A stretch of DNA of 64,000 nt, from the IMG/VR virus record IMGVR_UViG_3300028588_000820; one strand, written 5' to 3'. This DNA is from a virus. The notes below the pieces were generated by a model. It saw only the letters and a program-made list of their open reading frames with translations, did not search any database and had not been told where the DNA came from. A program made the position numbers and the translations under genes. This document shows, in pieces, positions 12,762 through 55,500 of this stretch. How positions within the stretch are numbered: position 1 is the stretch's first letter; each line of letters starts with the position of its first letter.

Positions 12762-13118
12762 ATGTCCGACGATACCTGGAATAGACAGATTCAAACTGAA
12801 AAAGGCAAGTACATGCAAAAGCTGTTTCCATACCGCGATGCATATCTTGCCGACTCCGACCTGGCTGAGCTAGTCGACGCCATTGCAACATCAGCAGCTA
12901 CACGTGCGCTGAATGCAGCGTATGGCGGTGAACACAATGATGGAGGTGCAAGCTCTGAGATTCGTCAGCTAAGTGCCTTCCTTGACGGTGTGCTTTACGC
13001 TGAGACTGGCAAGCTGCTAGGCCCATATGCTGAAGCGCTGAAGAACATCAAGATGCAACAAGACCCAGAGTACCAGAAGTTCTTGGAACTCAAGAAGAAA
13101 TTCGAAGGCAAAGAATGA
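12762..13118 (+). CDS. hypothetical protein
   Basis: C-terminal DPEYQKFLELKKKF. Confidence 0.7.
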   Translation: MSDDTWNRQIQTEKGKYMQKLFPYRDAYLADSDLAELVDAIATSAATRALNAAYGGEHNDGGASSEIRQLSAFLDGVLYAETGKLLGPYAEALKNIKMQQDPEYQKFLELKKKFEGKE

Positions 13119-13471
13119 GCTCACGCTACGCAATCCATCCAATGGAACAGAAGTTTCGTGAAGACATGATCGAGCAAGCGAAACGGGATGCTTATATCAA
13201 AGATATTTTTGCCGAGTGTGAAGAGCTAGGAATTACCGAACCTTCACGCATCGCCAAACGTGCATTCATCATGGGTCAGTATTATGAGAACCTAAAGAAG
13301 GCTGTGGTTCCGCGTCCTAATCCGATTCGCACGTACGAAGAATGGCTTGATACAAAAGTCGGCGCAATGGTCGAAGATACTGAAATCTGCATCCGTCACT
13401 ACATCGGCCCAGACCAGCACATGATCGCAAAGCTCGTCTACGAAACCTTGATGAAAGAACTTGCAAAATGA
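13115..13471 (+). CDS. hypothetical protein
   Basis: ATGA coupling on both sides. Confidence 0.7.
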   Translation: MSSRYAIHPMEQKFREDMIEQAKRDAYIKDIFAECEELGITEPSRIAKRAFIMGQYYENLKKAVVPRPNPIRTYEEWLDTKVGAMVEDTEICIRHYIGPDQHMIAKLVYETLMKELAK

Positions 13472-24883: not shown

Positions 24884-26749
24884 ATGGAAAATAATATTTT
24901 GAAGCTGGATGGCATGGAAAAGATCGAGTCGGACAAGGCAGTTTACCTGCCGTCGAAGAGCCGCCTCACTACCGAAAGCGAACTCGCCAAAGAGAAACGC
25001 AAATCGCCATTCGACTTCTTCAAACTGCCGAAGGATGCAACCATTCGGTTCCTGCCAGACAGCACCGGTCCGCTGACCACGTCAAGGGACTATCTTAGCC
25101 GGTATGTCGACGTCTACAGTATGTATAACATCGCTGAAGACTGCGTCATCACTCCGCTGGACATGAGTGGCTCAATGGCCAGCGCAGTCACCGAAACCGG
25201 CAGGGAAGCTGTTCGCAAAATCATGGATGATTACCTGAAACATGCGAAAGGTATGAAGTCTCTGTACTACACCCGTTCGTCCAAGCCGGTTGATCCGATT
25301 ATCACCATCGACTCGCTGAGCATGATCGTCGACTCGATGAAGACCTACCGCGAGGAAGAAGCGACCGATACGCTGCGCATGAAAATCCTGAAGGATCGTG
25401 ACCATCGCCAAGCTGAAGGCTGCTTCTACGCCCCGTACATCCCAGAAGGTCTTGGCAAGAACGAGTACAAAGTAGTGGAGCCGATCGGGTCGACCGACAC
25501 TCTGTCGAAGGAAGAATTCACGGCCGAGCCACGAGACCTGGCTCAAAACAATCTGTGCCAAGAAATCCATGATCACATGATCAACCTCGAGGTCAGCTTC
25601 GACTTTCCGCTGAAAGGTAAGAAAGTCAATCCTTTCATCTGGGACATGGACATCAACTGCTTGTACGATCGAGTCAGCCCCGTTTTCGACATTGAAAAGC
25701 CGCTGAATCCATGTAATGAAATCCCACTGGGCAAGCCGATGAACGGAGTAATGTTCGACAGTGATGTGGACCTGACGCAGAACGAAAATTGGAAGTCGTG
25801 GTTCGAGACGAACACCAACTGCAACTTCTTCGACGCCGAAACCACCTTCGTCCGGCTACCAACAACCATCACCACTGGCAACGACTACCTGGACATCTTG
25901 TTTGGCAATGGACTGAAGCCTGGATCGGTGACCTTAATCGCAGGTCAGGCAGGCCTCGGCAAATCGGCACTGGCTAAGAACGCAGCTGCTGGTCTGTCGG
26001 TGAATGGCACCGAGTTCCTGTACGTGACCGTTGAAGAATCTGCAGACAAAGTTATCGAACGCATTCAAGCTCTGAACAACCACAACGTCGATACGAACTA
26101 CAAAGTCGTTCGTGCTGGCGATTGGTGCCTCAATGGCCTGATCAACCTGATTCGTGAAGAGACTGAAGACCTGGCAAATCCACGCGTTGTGATCGTCGAC
26201 GGACTGGACTTCTTCAAAGATGCTGGTGCGCATATCCTGGGACGCCAACTGCGTACCCTCGCTATGGACCTCGATGTCGCAATCGTCGGCACCAATCAGC
26301 TGGCTCGTGCTAGTAAATACGACATCAAGCCGCTACTGCCAAGTGGTGACTATGGTCTGCTGGCTGAAGTCGATGCTGCGGTTGCAATCACTCGCAATGG
26401 TTGCGAAACTGAACTGTCGATCATGAAGAATCGTCACAGCCACACCAATGCCAAGTTCTTGTTCGATGCAGGTAGCAACCTGATCTGGGAGCCACTGAAG
26501 GTCGCTGCGGTGAATACCGAAGTGTTCGAATGCACCTTCCCGAAGCAAAGCGAAGGACGCGGTTCACGCGTTACCGAGTTGCCAGGAGGCAACGCAGAAG
26601 TGATGGAAATTGCTGACATCGAATTCTTCAAAGGTAAGCTTCTGACGAATCTGAAAATGCCAGTCTCGAAGAAAGTAACCTTCGCTGACCTGAAAGCAGC
26701 ATTCGCTCCAAAGGTCGAACCAGACTACCCAGTCGCCGACTGGCTCTAA
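24884..26749 (+). CDS. RecA/DnaB-fold ATPase flanked by a mosaic of core-phage-protein motifs
   Basis: Core aa ~328-520 (AGQAGLGKS, YVTVEES, VIVDGL, TNQLAR, KNRH); flanks described in findings. Confidence 0.85.
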   Translation: MENNILKLDGMEKIESDKAVYLPSKSRLTTESELAKEKRKSPFDFFKLPKDATIRFLPDSTGPLTTSRDYLSRYVDVYSMYNIAEDCVITPLDMSGSMASAVTETGREAVRKIMDDYLKHAKGMKSLYYTRSSKPVDPIITIDSLSMIVDSMKTYREEEATDTLRMKILKDRDHRQAEGCFYAPYIPEGLGKNEYKVVEPIGSTDTLSKEEFTAEPRDLAQNNLCQEIHDHMINLEVSFDFPLKGKKVNPFIWDMDINCLYDRVSPVFDIEKPLNPCNEIPLGKPMNGVMFDSDVDLTQNENWKSWFETNTNCNFFDAETTFVRLPTTITTGNDYLDILFGNGLKPGSVTLIAGQAGLGKSALAKNAAAGLSVNGTEFLYVTVEESADKVIERIQALNNHNVDTNYKVVRAGDWCLNGLINLIREETEDLANPRVVIVDGLDFFKDAGAHILGRQLRTLAMDLDVAIVGTNQLARASKYDIKPLLPSGDYGLLAEVDAAVAITRNGCETELSIMKNRHSHTNAKFLFDAGSNLIWEPLKVAAVNTEVFECTFPKQSEGRGSRVTELPGGNAEVMEIADIEFFKGKLLTNLKMPVSKKVTFADLKAAFAPKVEPDYPVADWL

Positions 26750-26765
26750 TAATAACAAGGAAAAC

Positions 26766-27011
26766 ATGACTACTGAAACCACCCAAAACGTCGTTACCAT
26801 CAACGGCAAAGAGTACGAAATCGCCAATCTGTCTGACACTGCAAAAAGTCTGCTGCAGATTTTTAACCAGTGGCAGAACGAGCGTGATGAATCAGCCACC
26901 GCCCTAACCAAGGCGAAGGTTGAGCTGGCAAAGAACGAGGCAGCACTACGTGACTTGTCCCGCGAAATCGTCGAGCTAATCGAGAACGAAGAAGCCGCAC
27001 CAGCTGCCTAA
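26766..27011 (+). CDS. small coiled-coil protein
   Basis: VTINGKEY followed by a helical segment; AAGG SD. Confidence 0.75.
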   Translation: MTTETTQNVVTINGKEYEIANLSDTAKSLLQIFNQWQNERDESATALTKAKVELAKNEAALRDLSREIVELIENEEAAPAA

Positions 27012-27071: not shown

Positions 27072-27098
27072 TTCGTGAACCCATACATAGACATCATC

Positions 27099-28838
27099 AT
27101 GCCATCACAATCATTTAAAGATTATCTCGACGACAACGATTACAAGCCAACGCTGAAATCAAAGTCTAAGTCGATCGAATACCTAGAAGACCTCAGCGTC
27201 AAAGACTTCATCGATGCTATCCGCAATCTTCACAAAAGCATCGTGGCCGAAAAGCTAGACGGTACCGCATTGACATTCGGTCTTGACGATGATGGCGAGT
27301 TTTATACCACTCGCTCTGGCAAAGGCAGTTCGGACAAGCTATGCTACAAAGCTGCTGACTGGGGCATCTCCGCCGCATCGAATGGCTTCAAGGCCACTCA
27401 CGCTGCGTTGAAGAAGCATTTGGAAACCATTAAGACGGTGATGCAACCAGGTGAAGCGATGGACGTGGAAATCATGTTCGGTCGTCAACCAAATACCATC
27501 GTCTACGGCCTCGATGGCTACAACTACATCGCGTTCCTCAAATCCACTCCGGGCACCAATAAAGAATTGAAGGTCGATCAAAAGAAAGTCAAGAAGCTTT
27601 TCAACAAGCTGAAGGATGAAACTTCTGACGTCCGCACTATCAACGTCGATACAACCGATGGCGAGAACCTGGTCCAAGCACCGACTGTCACCAATTGGAA
27701 ATTTACCACCCCAGAATTCATTGACACTAAGCACTTCGAAGACTCTGACGTTAAGGCAGAACTCGAAAAGCTTGAGAAGTTTCTCAACAAGAGAAATGAC
27801 AAGATGTCTGACATTCTAAATCGTGATGTCACCAACTTCGAAGCGGCTCAAGTCCCATTGACCGATGTTCGTACTGCAATTCGCAGTCAAGCTAAAGCAG
27901 CAAAAGAGGACATCAACGATGCGATCATGAACAAATACAAGTTGCCAATCAAGCAGACATTGCTTGACAAATTTGTCCGTACGGTGAAGCCACGTTTGCA
28001 AGATCGCGATGTTGAGCCAGCGGAAGACTTGGGCATGGAAGGTATTGTCGTTCTTGATCCTAAGACACAGAAACAGTTCAAGATCGTAGACAAAGAAACC
28101 TTCACCACTTTGAACCGTTTCAACTACGAGGTCCGCAATAACATTCGTGGCGTTGTTCGCTCCGAAGATGAAGATGCTCCATTGAACCTGCGTGGCGGTT
28201 TGCTCGGCACTGCTAAGATTCGCATCGCTCGCTTGTTCAACATGCCAGGTCTCGGCAAAGGTTACACCACTAAGAAGGTCATCGCGAAGTTCAAAGGCGC
28301 TAATGCTGATGAGACTGTTGCAAACCTAGCACAATCGCTACAAGATGCTGATTGGAGAGCTTACAAGGAAAAGATCAACGCGATTATCGTTGACACTTTG
28401 AAAGAGCTTCAAGAGGCATTGGATAACTTCAAAGAGAATTTCCACGATTACAAAGTCAAGTTGGAAAGCGGTAAAGAAGTTGGCTACACACAAGAGGTTG
28501 TTCGTCGTACACTTCTAGTGTTTGCCGAGACTCGTCAATCTTTGAAGCGTATGCAAAGCAAGATCGACGAAGCTCAGGGCATGGAAGACATCATCGTCGG
28601 TATGTTCGGCAAATCGATTAAGCAACTATTCGGTGACACGCCTGAGGCCGGAGAGGACTCAATCACCGAAGATGAAGGTGGAGCTGGAGAACCAGTCGGT
28701 ACCGTCTCCCCTTTGGGCCCTGGTACGTTCAGCGGTGCCATTGCTCCACTACCGAAGCGTTTGTTCCCTGGCAAGATGATCCGTCGCATTGTCAAGACCG
28801 GCGTGAAGGTAAAGCGCAAAAAGAAGTCAAATAAATAA
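27099..28838 (+). CDS. ligase/nucleotidyltransferase-fold protein (DUF6267-like)
   Basis: IEYLEDL, EKLDG (KxDG), EGIVV, FKIVDKxxF; start probably ATG27099. Confidence 0.65.
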   Translation: MPSQSFKDYLDDNDYKPTLKSKSKSIEYLEDLSVKDFIDAIRNLHKSIVAEKLDGTALTFGLDDDGEFYTTRSGKGSSDKLCYKAADWGISAASNGFKATHAALKKHLETIKTVMQPGEAMDVEIMFGRQPNTIVYGLDGYNYIAFLKSTPGTNKELKVDQKKVKKLFNKLKDETSDVRTINVDTTDGENLVQAPTVTNWKFTTPEFIDTKHFEDSDVKAELEKLEKFLNKRNDKMSDILNRDVTNFEAAQVPLTDVRTAIRSQAKAAKEDINDAIMNKYKLPIKQTLLDKFVRTVKPRLQDRDVEPAEDLGMEGIVVLDPKTQKQFKIVDKETFTTLNRFNYEVRNNIRGVVRSEDEDAPLNLRGGLLGTAKIRIARLFNMPGLGKGYTTKKVIAKFKGANADETVANLAQSLQDADWRAYKEKINAIIVDTLKELQEALDNFKENFHDYKVKLESGKEVGYTQEVVRRTLLVFAETRQSLKRMQSKIDEAQGMEDIIVGMFGKSIKQLFGDTPEAGEDSITEDEGGAGEPVGTVSPLGPGTFSGAIAPLPKRLFPGKMIRRIVKTGVKVKRKKKSNK

Positions 28839-52587: not shown

Positions 52588-55500
52588 TCAAAATGAGTAC
52601 CCGAGAGGCACAAGCACCGGAGAATCAAACGAATTTGATGAGCCAATAACCAAATCTTGGTTCAAACCTGAAACTACTGCCTCACCGTATGGCTTCGACA
52701 ATTTGAAGTTTTCTGGGTCAGAAACATCTTCAACGTTGTAGTGGAAAATACCACCGCTGATCTTCATACCAAGCTCAAGGCTTGGGAACGAAGACACCCA
52801 ATCAGACGACGAAAGAATTGCAATAGATTCACCAGACATATTGGTGCGGAACTTTACGCGGTATTCACCAACAGAGCTTAGGTATGGAACAACAGAACCC
52901 GGCACATCGGTGTAACCCCATGCAATCGGACGCTGTCTCCAGGTACGCTTACGAGAATACAACTCTGGTAGAGCGACTTCACCCGATGCTCGTACGTCGG
53001 CAGGAATCGACGAGTCACCTTCTTGACGTGCTACGAGTTCAGCATATTTAGAAGGATGAACAGTGGACTCGGTCCATTCGTACAACTCGACCTTTGCCCA
53101 GTCAGCCATCGCGCCCCAGTATGAAAGACGAGTATCCATGTTAGGGAAAATCTGACGATCACAGTATGGGATGTATTCCAAGTTCTTGGTGTTCCACCAC
53201 ACGCGACCTACATCCTTATCATCCCATGGACGGTACACATCATAGTTCACGTTGTTGATCTTACGAACGGAGTAGTTGTACTTCGCTGGTTCGTTCGGCG
53301 AAATGATGTCCACAATCTCAAGCGCTTCTGGAGTATGTGAGCCACGTGCCGGGTCCCACAAGCTCAAGTCAGAGATGATCACTTTGTTCTTGTAGTCAAT
53401 CAATTTCGCTGGACTGAACTTTGGCTGTGATGGACCATAGCAGCGAACGGTGTATTTACCACCAGTCACGTAGCCAGGACGAGCAAAGCCATTGAACTTG
53501 ATCGTCGATGAATTGATCAATGCGTACTCCACACCTTCGGTCAACTGAAGTAGGAATGGCGTGTCACGAACATCGAGATCATTGTCTGGCACAGTTACTT
53601 CCAAGAACACTTGAACCGCGTCGCAAATGACCTTCTTGCCATTCTGTACTAGGTCGTAAATCTTGGTTGGCCAAGGATCAACGAATACAAGTTCAGCAAT
53701 CTTCTCACCTACGAAGGTCACATCGTGGTTCAAGTCTTCAGCGGATACCCAACGCGACTCGTCGTCGTTTGAGATGTTGATGAAGCCGACCTGTGATGGA
53801 GCAGTCGAACTAGTGAAGTTAATCTTCGTATAATTGTGTTGCGCATCCGCGGTTGATAGCTTGATTTCAGGGAAGGCAAGTTGGCGCGCGTCGCCGAAGC
53901 TTGCAAGCTTGTATGCCCAGAATTCATCGATCTTCGCTGAGGTGAATCGAGCGGAGTTCAAGAATGCATTCACCGATAGGTTCGAACCTTTGTTCGACAC
54001 AAGACCACGCCAGAATCCGAATTGCGATTTGTCGGTCATCTCGATGTCAGACATGTACTTCTTAGGTTCATAGCCAAGTAGGCCGCGAGCGTGGCGAGCT
54101 GTTTCGCTTTCATCGATCATGCGATCTGCATCGTAGTAGTTCAGCATATCACCAATCGAGGCTTCGATGTTACGCTTGACCTTGTGATCCTTGATGTAAT
54201 GGCCGCCAAATGATAGACGTCCATTGAACTTCACTTGACGTTCAGCGGATAGGAACATGCGGTTGACACGAACACCTAGGAACGGATCGTAGATCAACTT
54301 GGAACGCGATTGATCGAACACATAGTTATTAAACAGCGTAATGTGTTCGTACTCGTCAACGATCAAGTGAACACCGCCCATTACAACCGCCGACTGAATT
54401 TCGGTCATCTCATCGTCACGGAAGATTTGGATGTCACTGTCGTGAATCTTGTTGCCGAACGAGTCGAAGATTGTCTGTGAGGACAATGCATCAGTCATCG
54501 AGGTTTTACGCATGTTCGAGACGAAGCCATGTGGGGTGCTGAACCACACATTGGTTGCGAACGGATTCAAGATTGAACCAGTGCCGGCTTCAACTCCTAG
54601 ATATTGCTGGTTGATGAAGCGCTCAACAAACATTTGCCAGTTGATGACGCGACCAGTTTGTTCATCGATTGATGGCTCCTTACCTTGGTTGAATCTCCAA
54701 CCTTGTTCTTCTAGACGATCAACATATCCGTAAATGATGTTCGCTACGTTCTCGATACCGGTCACAGTGAATGGGACGACCTTCGTAACGAGCGCCTTGC
54801 GGTCCTGAAGCTTCTTCCATTCGTCTGGTGAGTTAGCCTTCTCAAACGCGTTGAAAGTGACGTAGCGGCCTTCCTTGTCGTACTCGTAGTACTCGATGGT
54901 TGGGTTGTTGGTATTGAAGGTCTCAATACGGAACACCCAGTCTGCACCCTTGTTGCGTGGGACATTACGGCCATTCACCATTTGGGTGGTACCGACGCGG
55001 ATCAACTGCACACGAATAGCGTTTAGCCAGTGGTTCGAAATGCCCTTGTTCTCCTTGATGATAACACTGTAATCGTTATCGCTCATTTGGAACTGGTCGG
55101 TGCGAATCGATAGCAATTCGGTATTCACGAGACCGGACATTCTGTAACCTAGCTTCAAGTCCCAGTCACGTAGTAGATTGTTCGCAAGAGCAACGCTCAT
55201 GTCAACCGAGTTGTAACGATTTAGGTTCACGAACCATTGGTTCAGGCCATTGAACTTGCTGTATGGCGAAGCTACAAACTTATCAGTGCCATCGGTTGAT
55301 AGCACGATCTTGTCGCCGATGTTGAAGTCGGAGCCGTTGTCATTTAGGACGAAACGAATCTGCGCTGAAATGAACTCGGTGTTCACAACATAGTTTTTGG
55401 TTACGACGCCTGAGAAATCGCCCTTAACAGTGAAGATACTTCCGTGTGCCCCATTGCCGACACAGGTCAGTGTCCAGACTTTATCGTCGGTCGAGTTAAA

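What the first reader, a model, noticed from the sequence alone, without database searches (positions are those of the whole stretch)
26537..26704. 44-aa portal-protein (gp20) segment plus SSB N-terminal-like helix grafted on the C-terminus of the same ATPase
SEEN: FPKQSEGRGSRVTELPGGNAEVMEIADIEFFKGKLLTNLKMPVS, followed directly by KKVTFADLKAAF. KNOWLEDGE (recalled): the first matches the most conserved block of T4-like portals (FPxxxEGRGSxVxTLPGG-xNLGEIxDxxYFxxKLxxxLxxPxS). The second resembles the gp32-type N-terminal FADLK cooperativity helix. This is the longest module and the least likely to be chance, so it anchors the mosaic interpretation. Portal is the known ligand of Avs2/Avs4 STAND receptors. 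Decoy or antagonist function is inference.
Basis: partly seen in the sequence, partly recalled or inferred. Interest (0 to 1): 0.8.

Follow-up and report, generated by a model that had tools for sequence, protein, structure and literature searches.

The report
Portal-protein fragment on a phage ATPase
A fast-evolving helicase-like ATPase of a jumbo phage really does carry a 44-residue copy of the most conserved piece of the phage portal protein. Related phages carry the same piece at other positions in the same gene, so it is a kept, movable module whose purpose is still unknown.

Summary
Residues 552-595 of the 621-aa ORF 24884-26749 hit Pfam Portal_T4 above its curated cut-off (E 6e-7 for the segment alone). 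They are 48-52% identical to 85 T4-type portals, always at the same site.

The site corresponds to T4 gp20 residues ~335-378: inner clip loop, last clip strand, channel loop and stem helix alpha7.

The host protein has a RadA/DnaB-like RecA-fold core. Its flanks are not modelled by AlphaFold2. The gene sits directly after primase and helicase in a RsoM2USA-like jumbo phage.

The block is not a normal part of that ATPase family:
- Two positional orthologues carry portal-like pieces N-terminal to the ATPase core instead.
- Closer relatives carry a shortened form.
- All ATPase copies share a derived VTELP signature never seen in portals. This implies one capture followed by relocation.

The gene is hypervariable: its core is 27% identical between phages whose neighbouring genes are 70-74% identical.

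The following FADLKAAFA helix matches the N-terminus of the RsoM2USA gp32-type SSB (p about 0.003).

The broader "mosaic" idea has marginal support for the capsid protein and none for PolB, topoisomerase or UvsX. The Avs-decoy function is untested, and Avs2 senses terminase, not portal.

Best reading: an interface-mimic docking peptide (confidence 0.4).

The parts
24884..26749 (+). 621-aa ORF: hypervariable RadA/DnaB-like ATPase. It follows the helicase by 10 nt and precedes an 81-aa ORF by 16 nt.
   Evidence: ORF list. Synteny nudix-primase-helicase-ATPase-81aa-ligase-like is kept in L002, L090 and L091.
24914..25063 (+). Residues 11-60: leader resembling the first ~50 residues of jumbo-phage gp32-type SSBs, ending in IRFLPD.
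   Evidence: Profile of six SSBs: window 5.4 bits, E 7e-4; orthologue P0012 8.5 bits, E 8e-5 (one-target E-values). Modest support. In P0012 the same strand runs straight into a DxSxS motif, so it may be a domain strand rather than mimicry.
25160..25177 (+). Residues 93-98: DxSGSM, a MIDAS-like motif. The surrounding region (residues ~85-320) has an unknown fold.
   Evidence: Invariant in the clade. Weak profile hit to a vWA-type start in PDB 9no5 (E 0.18). ESM-Atlas neighbours are mostly vWA at TM 0.28-0.37. AlphaFold2 did not fold it.
25856..26518 (+). Residues 325-545: RecA-fold ATPase core. Walker A at 354-361, Walker B around D439, KNR at 515-517.
   Evidence: Pfam KaiC 39.1 bits and DnaB_C 37.3 bits. 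phrog_19 E 7e-20. pLDDT 80-93. Foldseek top hits are RadA/Sms, RAD51 paralogues, KaiC and DnaB.
26519..26584 (+). Residues 546-567: the two clip beta-strands plus inner clip loop of the portal-like block. This is the part kept in all clade members that have the block.
   Evidence: Alignments A1, A3 and A8. Portal profile alignment. T4 mapping through the L004 portal and the domain limits in PMC4493910.
26537..26668 (+). Residues 552-595: the block that matches Portal_T4. It is equivalent to T4 gp20 ~335-378.
26594..26641 (+). About 48 nt (16 codons; channel loop end and first half of the alpha7-like helix) present here but absent from the 74% identical orthologue in L002. Limits are approximate.
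   Evidence: DNA alignment A2. Protein alignment. P0004 has a 13-residue gap at the same place.
26678..26713 (+). Residues 599-610: helix-like motif resembling the N-terminal helix of the RsoM2USA gp32-type SSB.
   Evidence: Core FA[DN]LK kept in all five clade members, four of which have the full motif. Targeted shuffle test p = 0.002.
26717..26746 (+). Residues 612-621: acidic-aromatic C-terminal tail ending in ADWL.
   Evidence: Nearly identical in all five clade members, including those without the portal block.

Best explanation
**What it is (shown).** The stretch is a genuine, selectively kept copy of the most conserved block of T4-type portal proteins. It covers the last two clip beta-strands with the inner clip loop, the channel loop and stem helix alpha7. 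It sits in a C-terminal extension that AlphaFold2 does not model. The host protein is a fast-evolving RadA/DnaB-like ATPase encoded right after the replicative helicase in a clade of RsoM2USA-like jumbo phages. The protein is neither a portal nor a standard helicase.

**How it most likely works (inferred).** It is an interface mimic.
1. In a portal ring, the clip beta-strands form a three-stranded sheet made of two strands from one subunit and one from its neighbour. This is the only main-chain contact between subunits.
2. Displayed on the ATPase, the hairpin could pair with that strand of an unassembled portal subunit. It could also occupy the site of other proteins that grip the clip.
3. The helix that follows resembles the N-terminal helix of the lineage's gp32-type SSB. 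In T4 that helix mediates SSB-SSB cooperativity.
4. The tail would therefore let the motor dock on, or compete with, self-assembling phage proteins.

Shown: homology, conservation, relocation and rapid evolution. Inferred: the binding itself and its purpose.
For: - **Homology to portals is significant and site-specific**.
- **It recurs in positional orthologues at other positions.** P0019 residues 83-123 plus 148-168 lie N-terminal to the core: Portal_T4 24.9 bits, above the cut-off; 27.4 + 5.3 bits with my profile. P0012 residues 132-172 also match.
- **Window block versus P0019 block:** local score 85 against a maximum of 54 in 2000 shuffles.
- **Shared derived signature.** All ATPase copies have VTELP. 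In the 76 portals where the LP-x-G anchor was found, the two positions before LP are E/D (69 of 76) then mostly T (59) or V (11), and never E directly before LP. This points to one origin and long retention.
- **The block is better kept than the ATPase core.** It is about 50% identical, against a core of 27-28%. Neighbouring primase and helicase are 69-74% identical.
- **Against the near relative L002:** ATPase 74% identical versus 96-98% for neighbours; dN/dS 0.23 versus 0.045.
- **The matching portal region is the inter-subunit beta-sheet and channel lining** (PMC4493910). The neck adaptor gp13 also contacts a clip strand and R339 (PMC12929587).
- **The extension is not modelled:** pLDDT below 50.
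- **SSB-helix match:** p = 0.002.
Against: - No binding was shown.
- The piece that the relatives P0003 and P0004 lack (half of the alpha7-like helix) shows the block does not act as one folded unit everywhere.
- In a portal the block is partly channel-lining rather than a free surface.
- Several orthologues (P0005, P0007-P0010, P0013) have no recognisable portal piece, so the ATPase works without it.
- Low pLDDT may only reflect a 13-row alignment.
- The SSB match holds for one of six SSBs.
- The phage's own portal and SSB are unknown.
Confidence: 0.4

Rival explanations
1. The captured fragment is reused for the ATPase's own purposes. It would be a ring-stabilising or DNA-contacting collar: the channel loop and stem helix line the DNA channel in portals. 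It would have no interaction with portal partners.
For: The core resembles ring helicases (RadA, DnaB, gp41). In portals the block contacts DNA and neighbouring subunits. The block is conserved better than the core.
Against: It lies N-terminal to the core in P0019 and P0012 but C-terminal in the window clade, which would place it on opposite faces of a ring. Half of the helix is deleted in P0003 and P0004. Many orthologues lack it entirely. It is not modelled against the core.
Confidence: 0.22
2. An early-made, multivalent ATPase displays peptides of conserved phage proteins (portal, SSB and perhaps capsid) and so occupies or misdirects host sensors of those proteins.
For: The gene is hypervariable and its modules turn over, as is typical of conflict genes. 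It is co-oriented and tightly spaced with replication genes, so it is probably expressed before late proteins. Portal, capsid, polymerase and RecA-type ATPases are all known triggers of Avs families (PMC13581612).
Against: The sensors whose complexes were modelled bind whole folds through extended interfaces (the two portal sensors were not modelled there), and binding activates them, so a mimic could just as well set them off (PMC13581612). No trigger-mimic decoy is listed among known anti-defence proteins in the compilation I read (10.1101/2025.06.06.658234). Only the portal piece is statistically firm. The host and its defences are unknown.
Confidence: 0.15
3. The piece is a functionless remnant of illegitimate recombination, or of mobile-element traffic with co-conversion of flanking conserved sequence. 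It is tolerated because the flanks of the ATPase are unstructured.
For: Indels of 13-24 residues occur at the same spot in different lineages. The flanks are poorly modelled and highly variable. Homing elements in T4-type phages target conserved gene blocks (general knowledge, not tested here).
Against: The residues kept are exactly those conserved in portals. The block is about 50% identical between orthologues whose cores are 27% identical. dN/dS of the extension is 0.23, not 1. No portal shares enough words to suggest a recent donor.
Confidence: 0.15
4. The resemblance arises by chance or through convergent composition.
For: The block is short (44 residues) and glycine/proline-rich at its centre.
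Against: E 6e-7 against Pfam. 35 bits against an independent portal profile. Top hit of 482 ORFs, above all shuffles. It recurs in orthologues.
Confidence: 0.02

Closest known systems
T4-type portal protein gp20 (Pfam PF07230), clip-to-stem segment
   Same: It has 45-52% identity over 44 residues to 85 portals at one site. It keeps the FP, EGRGS, LPGG, helix and closing proline positions of the portal consensus.
   Different: Only about 10% of the portal domain is present. There is no wing, crown or first stem helix. It carries a derived TE in place of the portal's E/D-T before LP. It is fused to an ATPase in the replication module.
RadA/Sms and DnaB-type RecA-fold hexameric helicases
   Same: Walker A, Walker B and KNR motifs are present. 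The best structural matches are RadA (8rxc), DnaB and T4 gp41. The next-best sequence hits of the family profile are RadA/Sms proteins.
   Different: There is no RadA zinc ribbon or Lon-like domain and no DnaB N-terminal domain. About 320 residues of unknown N-terminal region are present, together with the portal/SSB-like tail.
Oligomerisation-motif mimicry, such as BRCA2 BRC repeats copying the RAD51 self-association motif (general knowledge, not tested here)
   Same: This is a works-like analogy only. A short peptide copied from the self-association surface of an assembling protein is displayed on another protein to bind its monomers.
   Different: There is no sequence relation. Binding is not shown here. 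The sources are a portal and an SSB rather than a recombinase.
gp32-type SSB N-terminal cooperativity region
   Same: Residues 599-610 match the N-terminal helix of the RsoM2USA SSB (p = 0.002). Residues 11-60 align to SSB positions 1-50.
   Different: There is no OB-fold and no PF08804 hit. Five other jumbo-phage SSBs do not match the tail.

Membership tests
Portal_T4 (PF07230) portal protein | Local sequence match above the curated cut-off | tested here: met
   28.9 bits for the segment and 24.6 bits for the whole protein, against a cut-off of 22.9.
Portal_T4 (PF07230) portal protein | Full clip-stem-wing-crown domain (about 430 profile positions) able to form the dodecamer | tested here: not met
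   Only profile positions 260-302 of 433 are matched. Nothing else in the protein aligns to a portal profile.
RadA/Sms | RecA-fold core with Walker A/B and a KNR-type motif | tested here: met
   The motifs are seen in sequence. Foldseek top hit is 8rxc RadA at E 4.6e-15.
RadA/Sms | N-terminal zinc ribbon and C-terminal Lon-like domain | tested here: not met
   No PF18073 or PF13541 hit, unlike the RadA proteins found next by the family profile.
DnaB replicative helicase | DnaB N-terminal domain plus a full DnaB_C domain | tested here: not met
   DnaB_C is matched only at profile positions 2-107 of 255, and there is no N-terminal domain. The true DnaB-type helicase is the upstream gene (phrog_19, E 5e-76).
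gp32 SSB (PF08804) | OB-fold core domain | tested here: not met
   No PF08804 match anywhere in the record. Only short N-terminal resemblances were found.
vWA domain | MIDAS DxSxS motif within a Rossmann-like fold of about 180 residues | tested here: inconclusive
   The motif is present at residues 93-97. There is no Pfam VWA hit. PDB profile hit E 0.18. Atlas neighbours are vWA at TM 0.28-0.37. The AlphaFold2 model has pLDDT 39.
Phage decoy of Avs-type sensors | Binds a sensor domain and blocks its activation | not testable with these tools
   No sensor of the unknown host is available. No such decoy family is described in the papers read.

The most novel reading that the evidence does not exclude
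The family is a programmable display scaffold. It would be a hexameric motor whose unstructured arms carry exchangeable copies of the most constrained peptides of the phage's own core proteins: portal, SSB, and possibly capsid, topoisomerase and polymerase. These copies would pre-empt or jam host sensors, or the assemblies of rival phages, that recognise those peptides. This would be a multi-epitope decoy with no known precedent.
Probability: 0.13. Interest if true: 0.9.

Novelty: new variant of a known kind. Interest (0 to 1): 0.65.

Why it matters
Portal proteins are not known to lend pieces to replication-module enzymes. Three features together suggest that phages reuse self-association peptides as portable docking or interference modules:
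- the copy of the portal's inter-subunit hairpin is conserved;
- it has moved within the gene;
- the gene evolves about as fast as conflict genes do.

If the peptide binds portal subunits or clip-binding partners, it would link replication or recombination machinery to head assembly or packaging in jumbo phages. If it binds host sensors, it would be the first trigger-mimic decoy. Either way the family gives a small, testable peptide.

Tried and rejected
- **Co-fold of a related portal (554 aa, 33-row alignment) with the 86-residue tail.** The job gave no verdict. I draw nothing from it.
- **Single-sequence search of the tail against PDB sequences.** It found no portal, only a non-significant adaptor-protein match (7z47, E 1.8).
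- **Word-based search with residues 545-621.** It found no portal sharing words, so there is no recent donor among 5.8 billion proteins.
- **N-terminal region as a second, diverged portal copy.** Rejected: p = 0.44.
- **N-terminal region as a degenerate UvsX domain.** A pairwise alignment looked good (score 74 against a shuffle maximum of 63). Profile comparison kept only 20 residues at E 0.1, and PHROGs gave no UvsX hit. Related phages also have a separate RecA next to the SSB gene.
- **T4 gp40 (portal assembly chaperone, next to gene 41) as a relative.** No similarity.
- **Mosaic of the phage's own proteins.** The N-terminal 325 residues, compared with the other 115 ORFs of the record, score no better than shuffles.
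- **Recent DNA patches.** Codons at the topoisomerase-like and PolB-like motifs differ at synonymous sites from the phage's own genes.
- **AlphaFold2 of the N-terminal region alone.** It failed: pLDDT 39.
- **Own portal or SSB.** Neither is in the 103.6-kb record, nor in the L002 contig.

Full report
**The sequence**

Translation of 26537-26704 (+) gives the quoted peptide. It forms residues 552-607 of a 621-aa ORF at 24884-26749. The gene starts 10 nt after a DnaB-type helicase gene, which itself follows a primase. No promoter-like or terminator-like site separates these genes.

**Is the portal match real?**

- The last 70 residues alone hit Pfam Portal_T4 at E 6.2e-7 (28.9 bits, cut-off 22.9). 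They cover profile positions 260-302 of 433. The whole protein gives E 1.3e-5.
- PHROG portal family phrog_213 gives the same result.
- I collected 85 T4-type portals from viral contigs. The segment aligns to every one at the homologous site with 45-52% identity over 44 residues.
- A profile of those portals scores it at 35 bits.
- It keeps just the positions that are near-invariant in portals.
- In a search of all 482 ORFs of phage RsoM2USA, the portal is the top hit. It scores 35.4 bits, and the best of 20 shuffles scores 26.2.
- An identical fragment (P0002) and a 74% identical orthologue in another metagenome (L002) rule out an assembly artefact.

**Which part of a portal is it?**

I aligned a contig portal to T4 gp20 and used the domain limits of Sun et al. 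(PMC4493910). By that mapping the block equals gp20 residues ~335-378. It comprises:
- the inner clip loop;
- the last clip strand;
- the channel loop (350-359), described as exceptionally conserved even between T4 and SPP1;
- stem helix alpha7.

Residues 546-551 extend the match weakly into the preceding clip strand.

In the portal ring the clip strands form a three-stranded sheet with the neighbouring subunit. This is the only main-chain inter-subunit contact. The neck adaptor gp13 also packs against a clip strand and R339 (PMC12929587).

**The host protein**

- Residues 325-545 are a RecA-fold ATPase with intact Walker A, Walker B and KNR motifs. Supporting hits are KaiC, DnaB_C and phrog_19.
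- AlphaFold2 models this core at pLDDT 80-93. Residues 1-324 and 540-621 stay below 50.
- Foldseek places the core next to RadA/Sms, RAD51 paralogues, KaiC and DnaB.
- The family profile next finds RadA/Sms proteins.
- The protein lacks the RadA zinc ribbon and Lon-like domain, and it lacks the DnaB N-terminal domain.

**The phage**

- The helicase is 47% identical to that of Ralstonia phage RsoM2USA (344 kb). More distant relatives are Atu_ph07 and PA5oct.
- The record is 103.6 kb, about 30% complete, and holds no portal gene. The only Portal_T4 match is this segment.
- RsoM2USA has a normal PF07230 portal. The two large genes downstream of its helicase are not homologues of this ATPase.

**The family**

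- Exhaustive search of 1.84 billion representatives finds only about a dozen true relatives before generic RecA-fold hits begin.
- P0012 and P0019 are positional orthologues. Both sit in the order primase, helicase, ATPase, small ORF (nudix upstream and the ligase-like gene downstream are seen for P0012 only).
- Their primase and helicase are 69-74% identical to the window's, but the ATPase cores are only 27-28% identical.
- Against the near relative L002, neighbours are 96-98% identical and the ATPase is 74% identical. dN/dS is 0.23 against about 0.045, evenly along the gene.
- The gene is therefore hypervariable within a conserved module.

**The block across the family**

| Member(s) | Portal-like content |
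|---|---|
| P0007-P0010, P0013 | None; protein ends right after the core |
| P0003, P0004 | Hairpin and closing proline kept; 16 or 13 residues of loop and helix missing |
| P0006 | Degenerate version |
| P0005 | None |
| P0019 | Residues 83-123 plus 148-168, N-terminal to the core, with a 24-residue insert; 24.9 bits on Pfam (above cut-off), 27.4 + 5.3 bits on my profile |
| P0012 | About 40 residues of the portal segment just upstream, also N-terminal to the core |

- The window block and the P0019 block align with score 85, against a shuffle maximum of 54.
- All ATPase copies read VTELP. None of the 76 portals where the LP-x-G anchor was found has E at that position.
- I conclude that there was one capture into the family. 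Retention under selection followed, with relocation and partial loss in different lineages.

**The helix after the block**

- The FA[DN]LK core is kept in all five clade members and the full FADLKAAFA-type motif in four. The ADWL tail is in all five, including those without the portal piece.
- The RsoM2USA gp32-type SSB begins with a helix whose core is identical at seven of eight positions. In a shuffle test restricted to SSB N-termini, p = 0.002, or 0.003 for the best of six.
- Five other jumbo-phage SSBs do not match.

**The wider mosaic claim**

- A profile of six SSBs aligns SSB positions 1-50 to residues 11-60 of the window protein (E 7e-4) and to P0012 (E 8e-5). In P0012 the shared strand runs directly into a DxSGSM motif, so it may simply be a strand of an N-terminal domain.
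- A capsid-protein motif is the top proteome hit for P0003, P0004 and P0005 (26.6-30.8 bits; P0004 and P0005 just above, P0003 below, their shuffle maxima). Pfam and PHROG hits are weak (E 0.015-0.09). This is marginal and represents one evolutionary event.
- The topoisomerase-like motif is identical over 11 residues between P0004 and this phage's own topoisomerase II, a gene outside the window. It and the PolB-like and UvsX-like motifs are within the range of shuffles.
- Codons at the topoisomerase-like and PolB-like motifs differ at synonymous sites from the phage's own genes.
- The region 85-320 may be a vWA-like domain, but this is unresolved.

**Interpretation**

The firm facts are these:
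- The piece is a portal-derived hairpin, loop and helix.
- It is kept better than the enzyme core.
- It is movable within a hypervariable ATPase.
- It sits next to an SSB-like helix in a region that AlphaFold2 does not model.

Both source elements are self-association surfaces of assembling proteins. I therefore favour interface mimicry (0.4): the tail lets the motor dock on, or compete with, portal subunits, clip-binding partners or SSB. I weigh the alternatives as follows.

| Alternative | Confidence |
|---|---|
| Reuse as the ATPase's own collar | 0.22 |
| Sensor decoy | 0.15 |
| Tolerated remnant | 0.15 |
| Chance | 0.02 |

On the decoy idea:
- Avs1-4 together sense terminase and portal.
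- Avs2 is described as a terminase sensor.
- Avs4 and Avs11 sense portal.
- Recognition, where it has been modelled, is of whole folds (PMC13581612; PMC11564622 and the Avs2 preprint abstracts).
- No trigger-mimic decoy is among the catalogued anti-defence proteins I read.

Noticed in passing
window 24884-24970 and orthologues P0003-P0019: All orthologues, even the most distant, share an N-terminal motif (LDGMEKIE, then Y-x-PSK and TT). This is the only part outside the ATPase core common to the whole family. Its role is unknown.
   Followed up: partly
own genome G000:C1:95180-97126 (outside the window; locus L094): The type II topoisomerase of this phage carries a TOPRIM motif that is identical over 11 residues to a stretch in the N-terminal region of orthologue P0004. 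It matches at 7 of 9 residues to residues 241-249 of the window ATPase. The match is not above shuffles on its own.
   Followed up: partly
RsoM2USA 174991-175335 (locus L111, about 12991-13335): A 114-aa ORF carries both a capsid-like GFFYAPY motif and an EIRFLE strand. It is a small stand-alone protein with motifs like those in the ATPase's N-terminal region.
   Followed up: no
RsoM2USA 55239-55469 (minus strand): A 76-aa ORF ends in PDWL, like the ADWL tail of the ATPase clade. This may be a shared docking tail.
   Followed up: no
window 26766-27011 and 27075-28838: An 81-aa coiled-coil-like ORF (weak DUF6447 hit) and a 587-aa protein (weak RNA-ligase hit) follow the ATPase. The small ORF is seen in every related contig examined and the large one where the contig reaches it. 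The large one is 70% identical in L091.
   Followed up: partly
window 26609-26746 (residues 576-621): A non-significant (E 1.8) but collinear resemblance to residues 39-80 of a phage head-to-tail adaptor protein in PDB 7z47.
   Followed up: no
loci L096, L097, L100: In RsoM2USA, Xoo-sp13 and Phosso a RecA/UvsX-type recombinase gene lies directly next to the gp32-type SSB gene. The helicase-adjacent ATPase studied here is therefore an extra RecA-fold paralogue, not the recombinase.
   Followed up: partly
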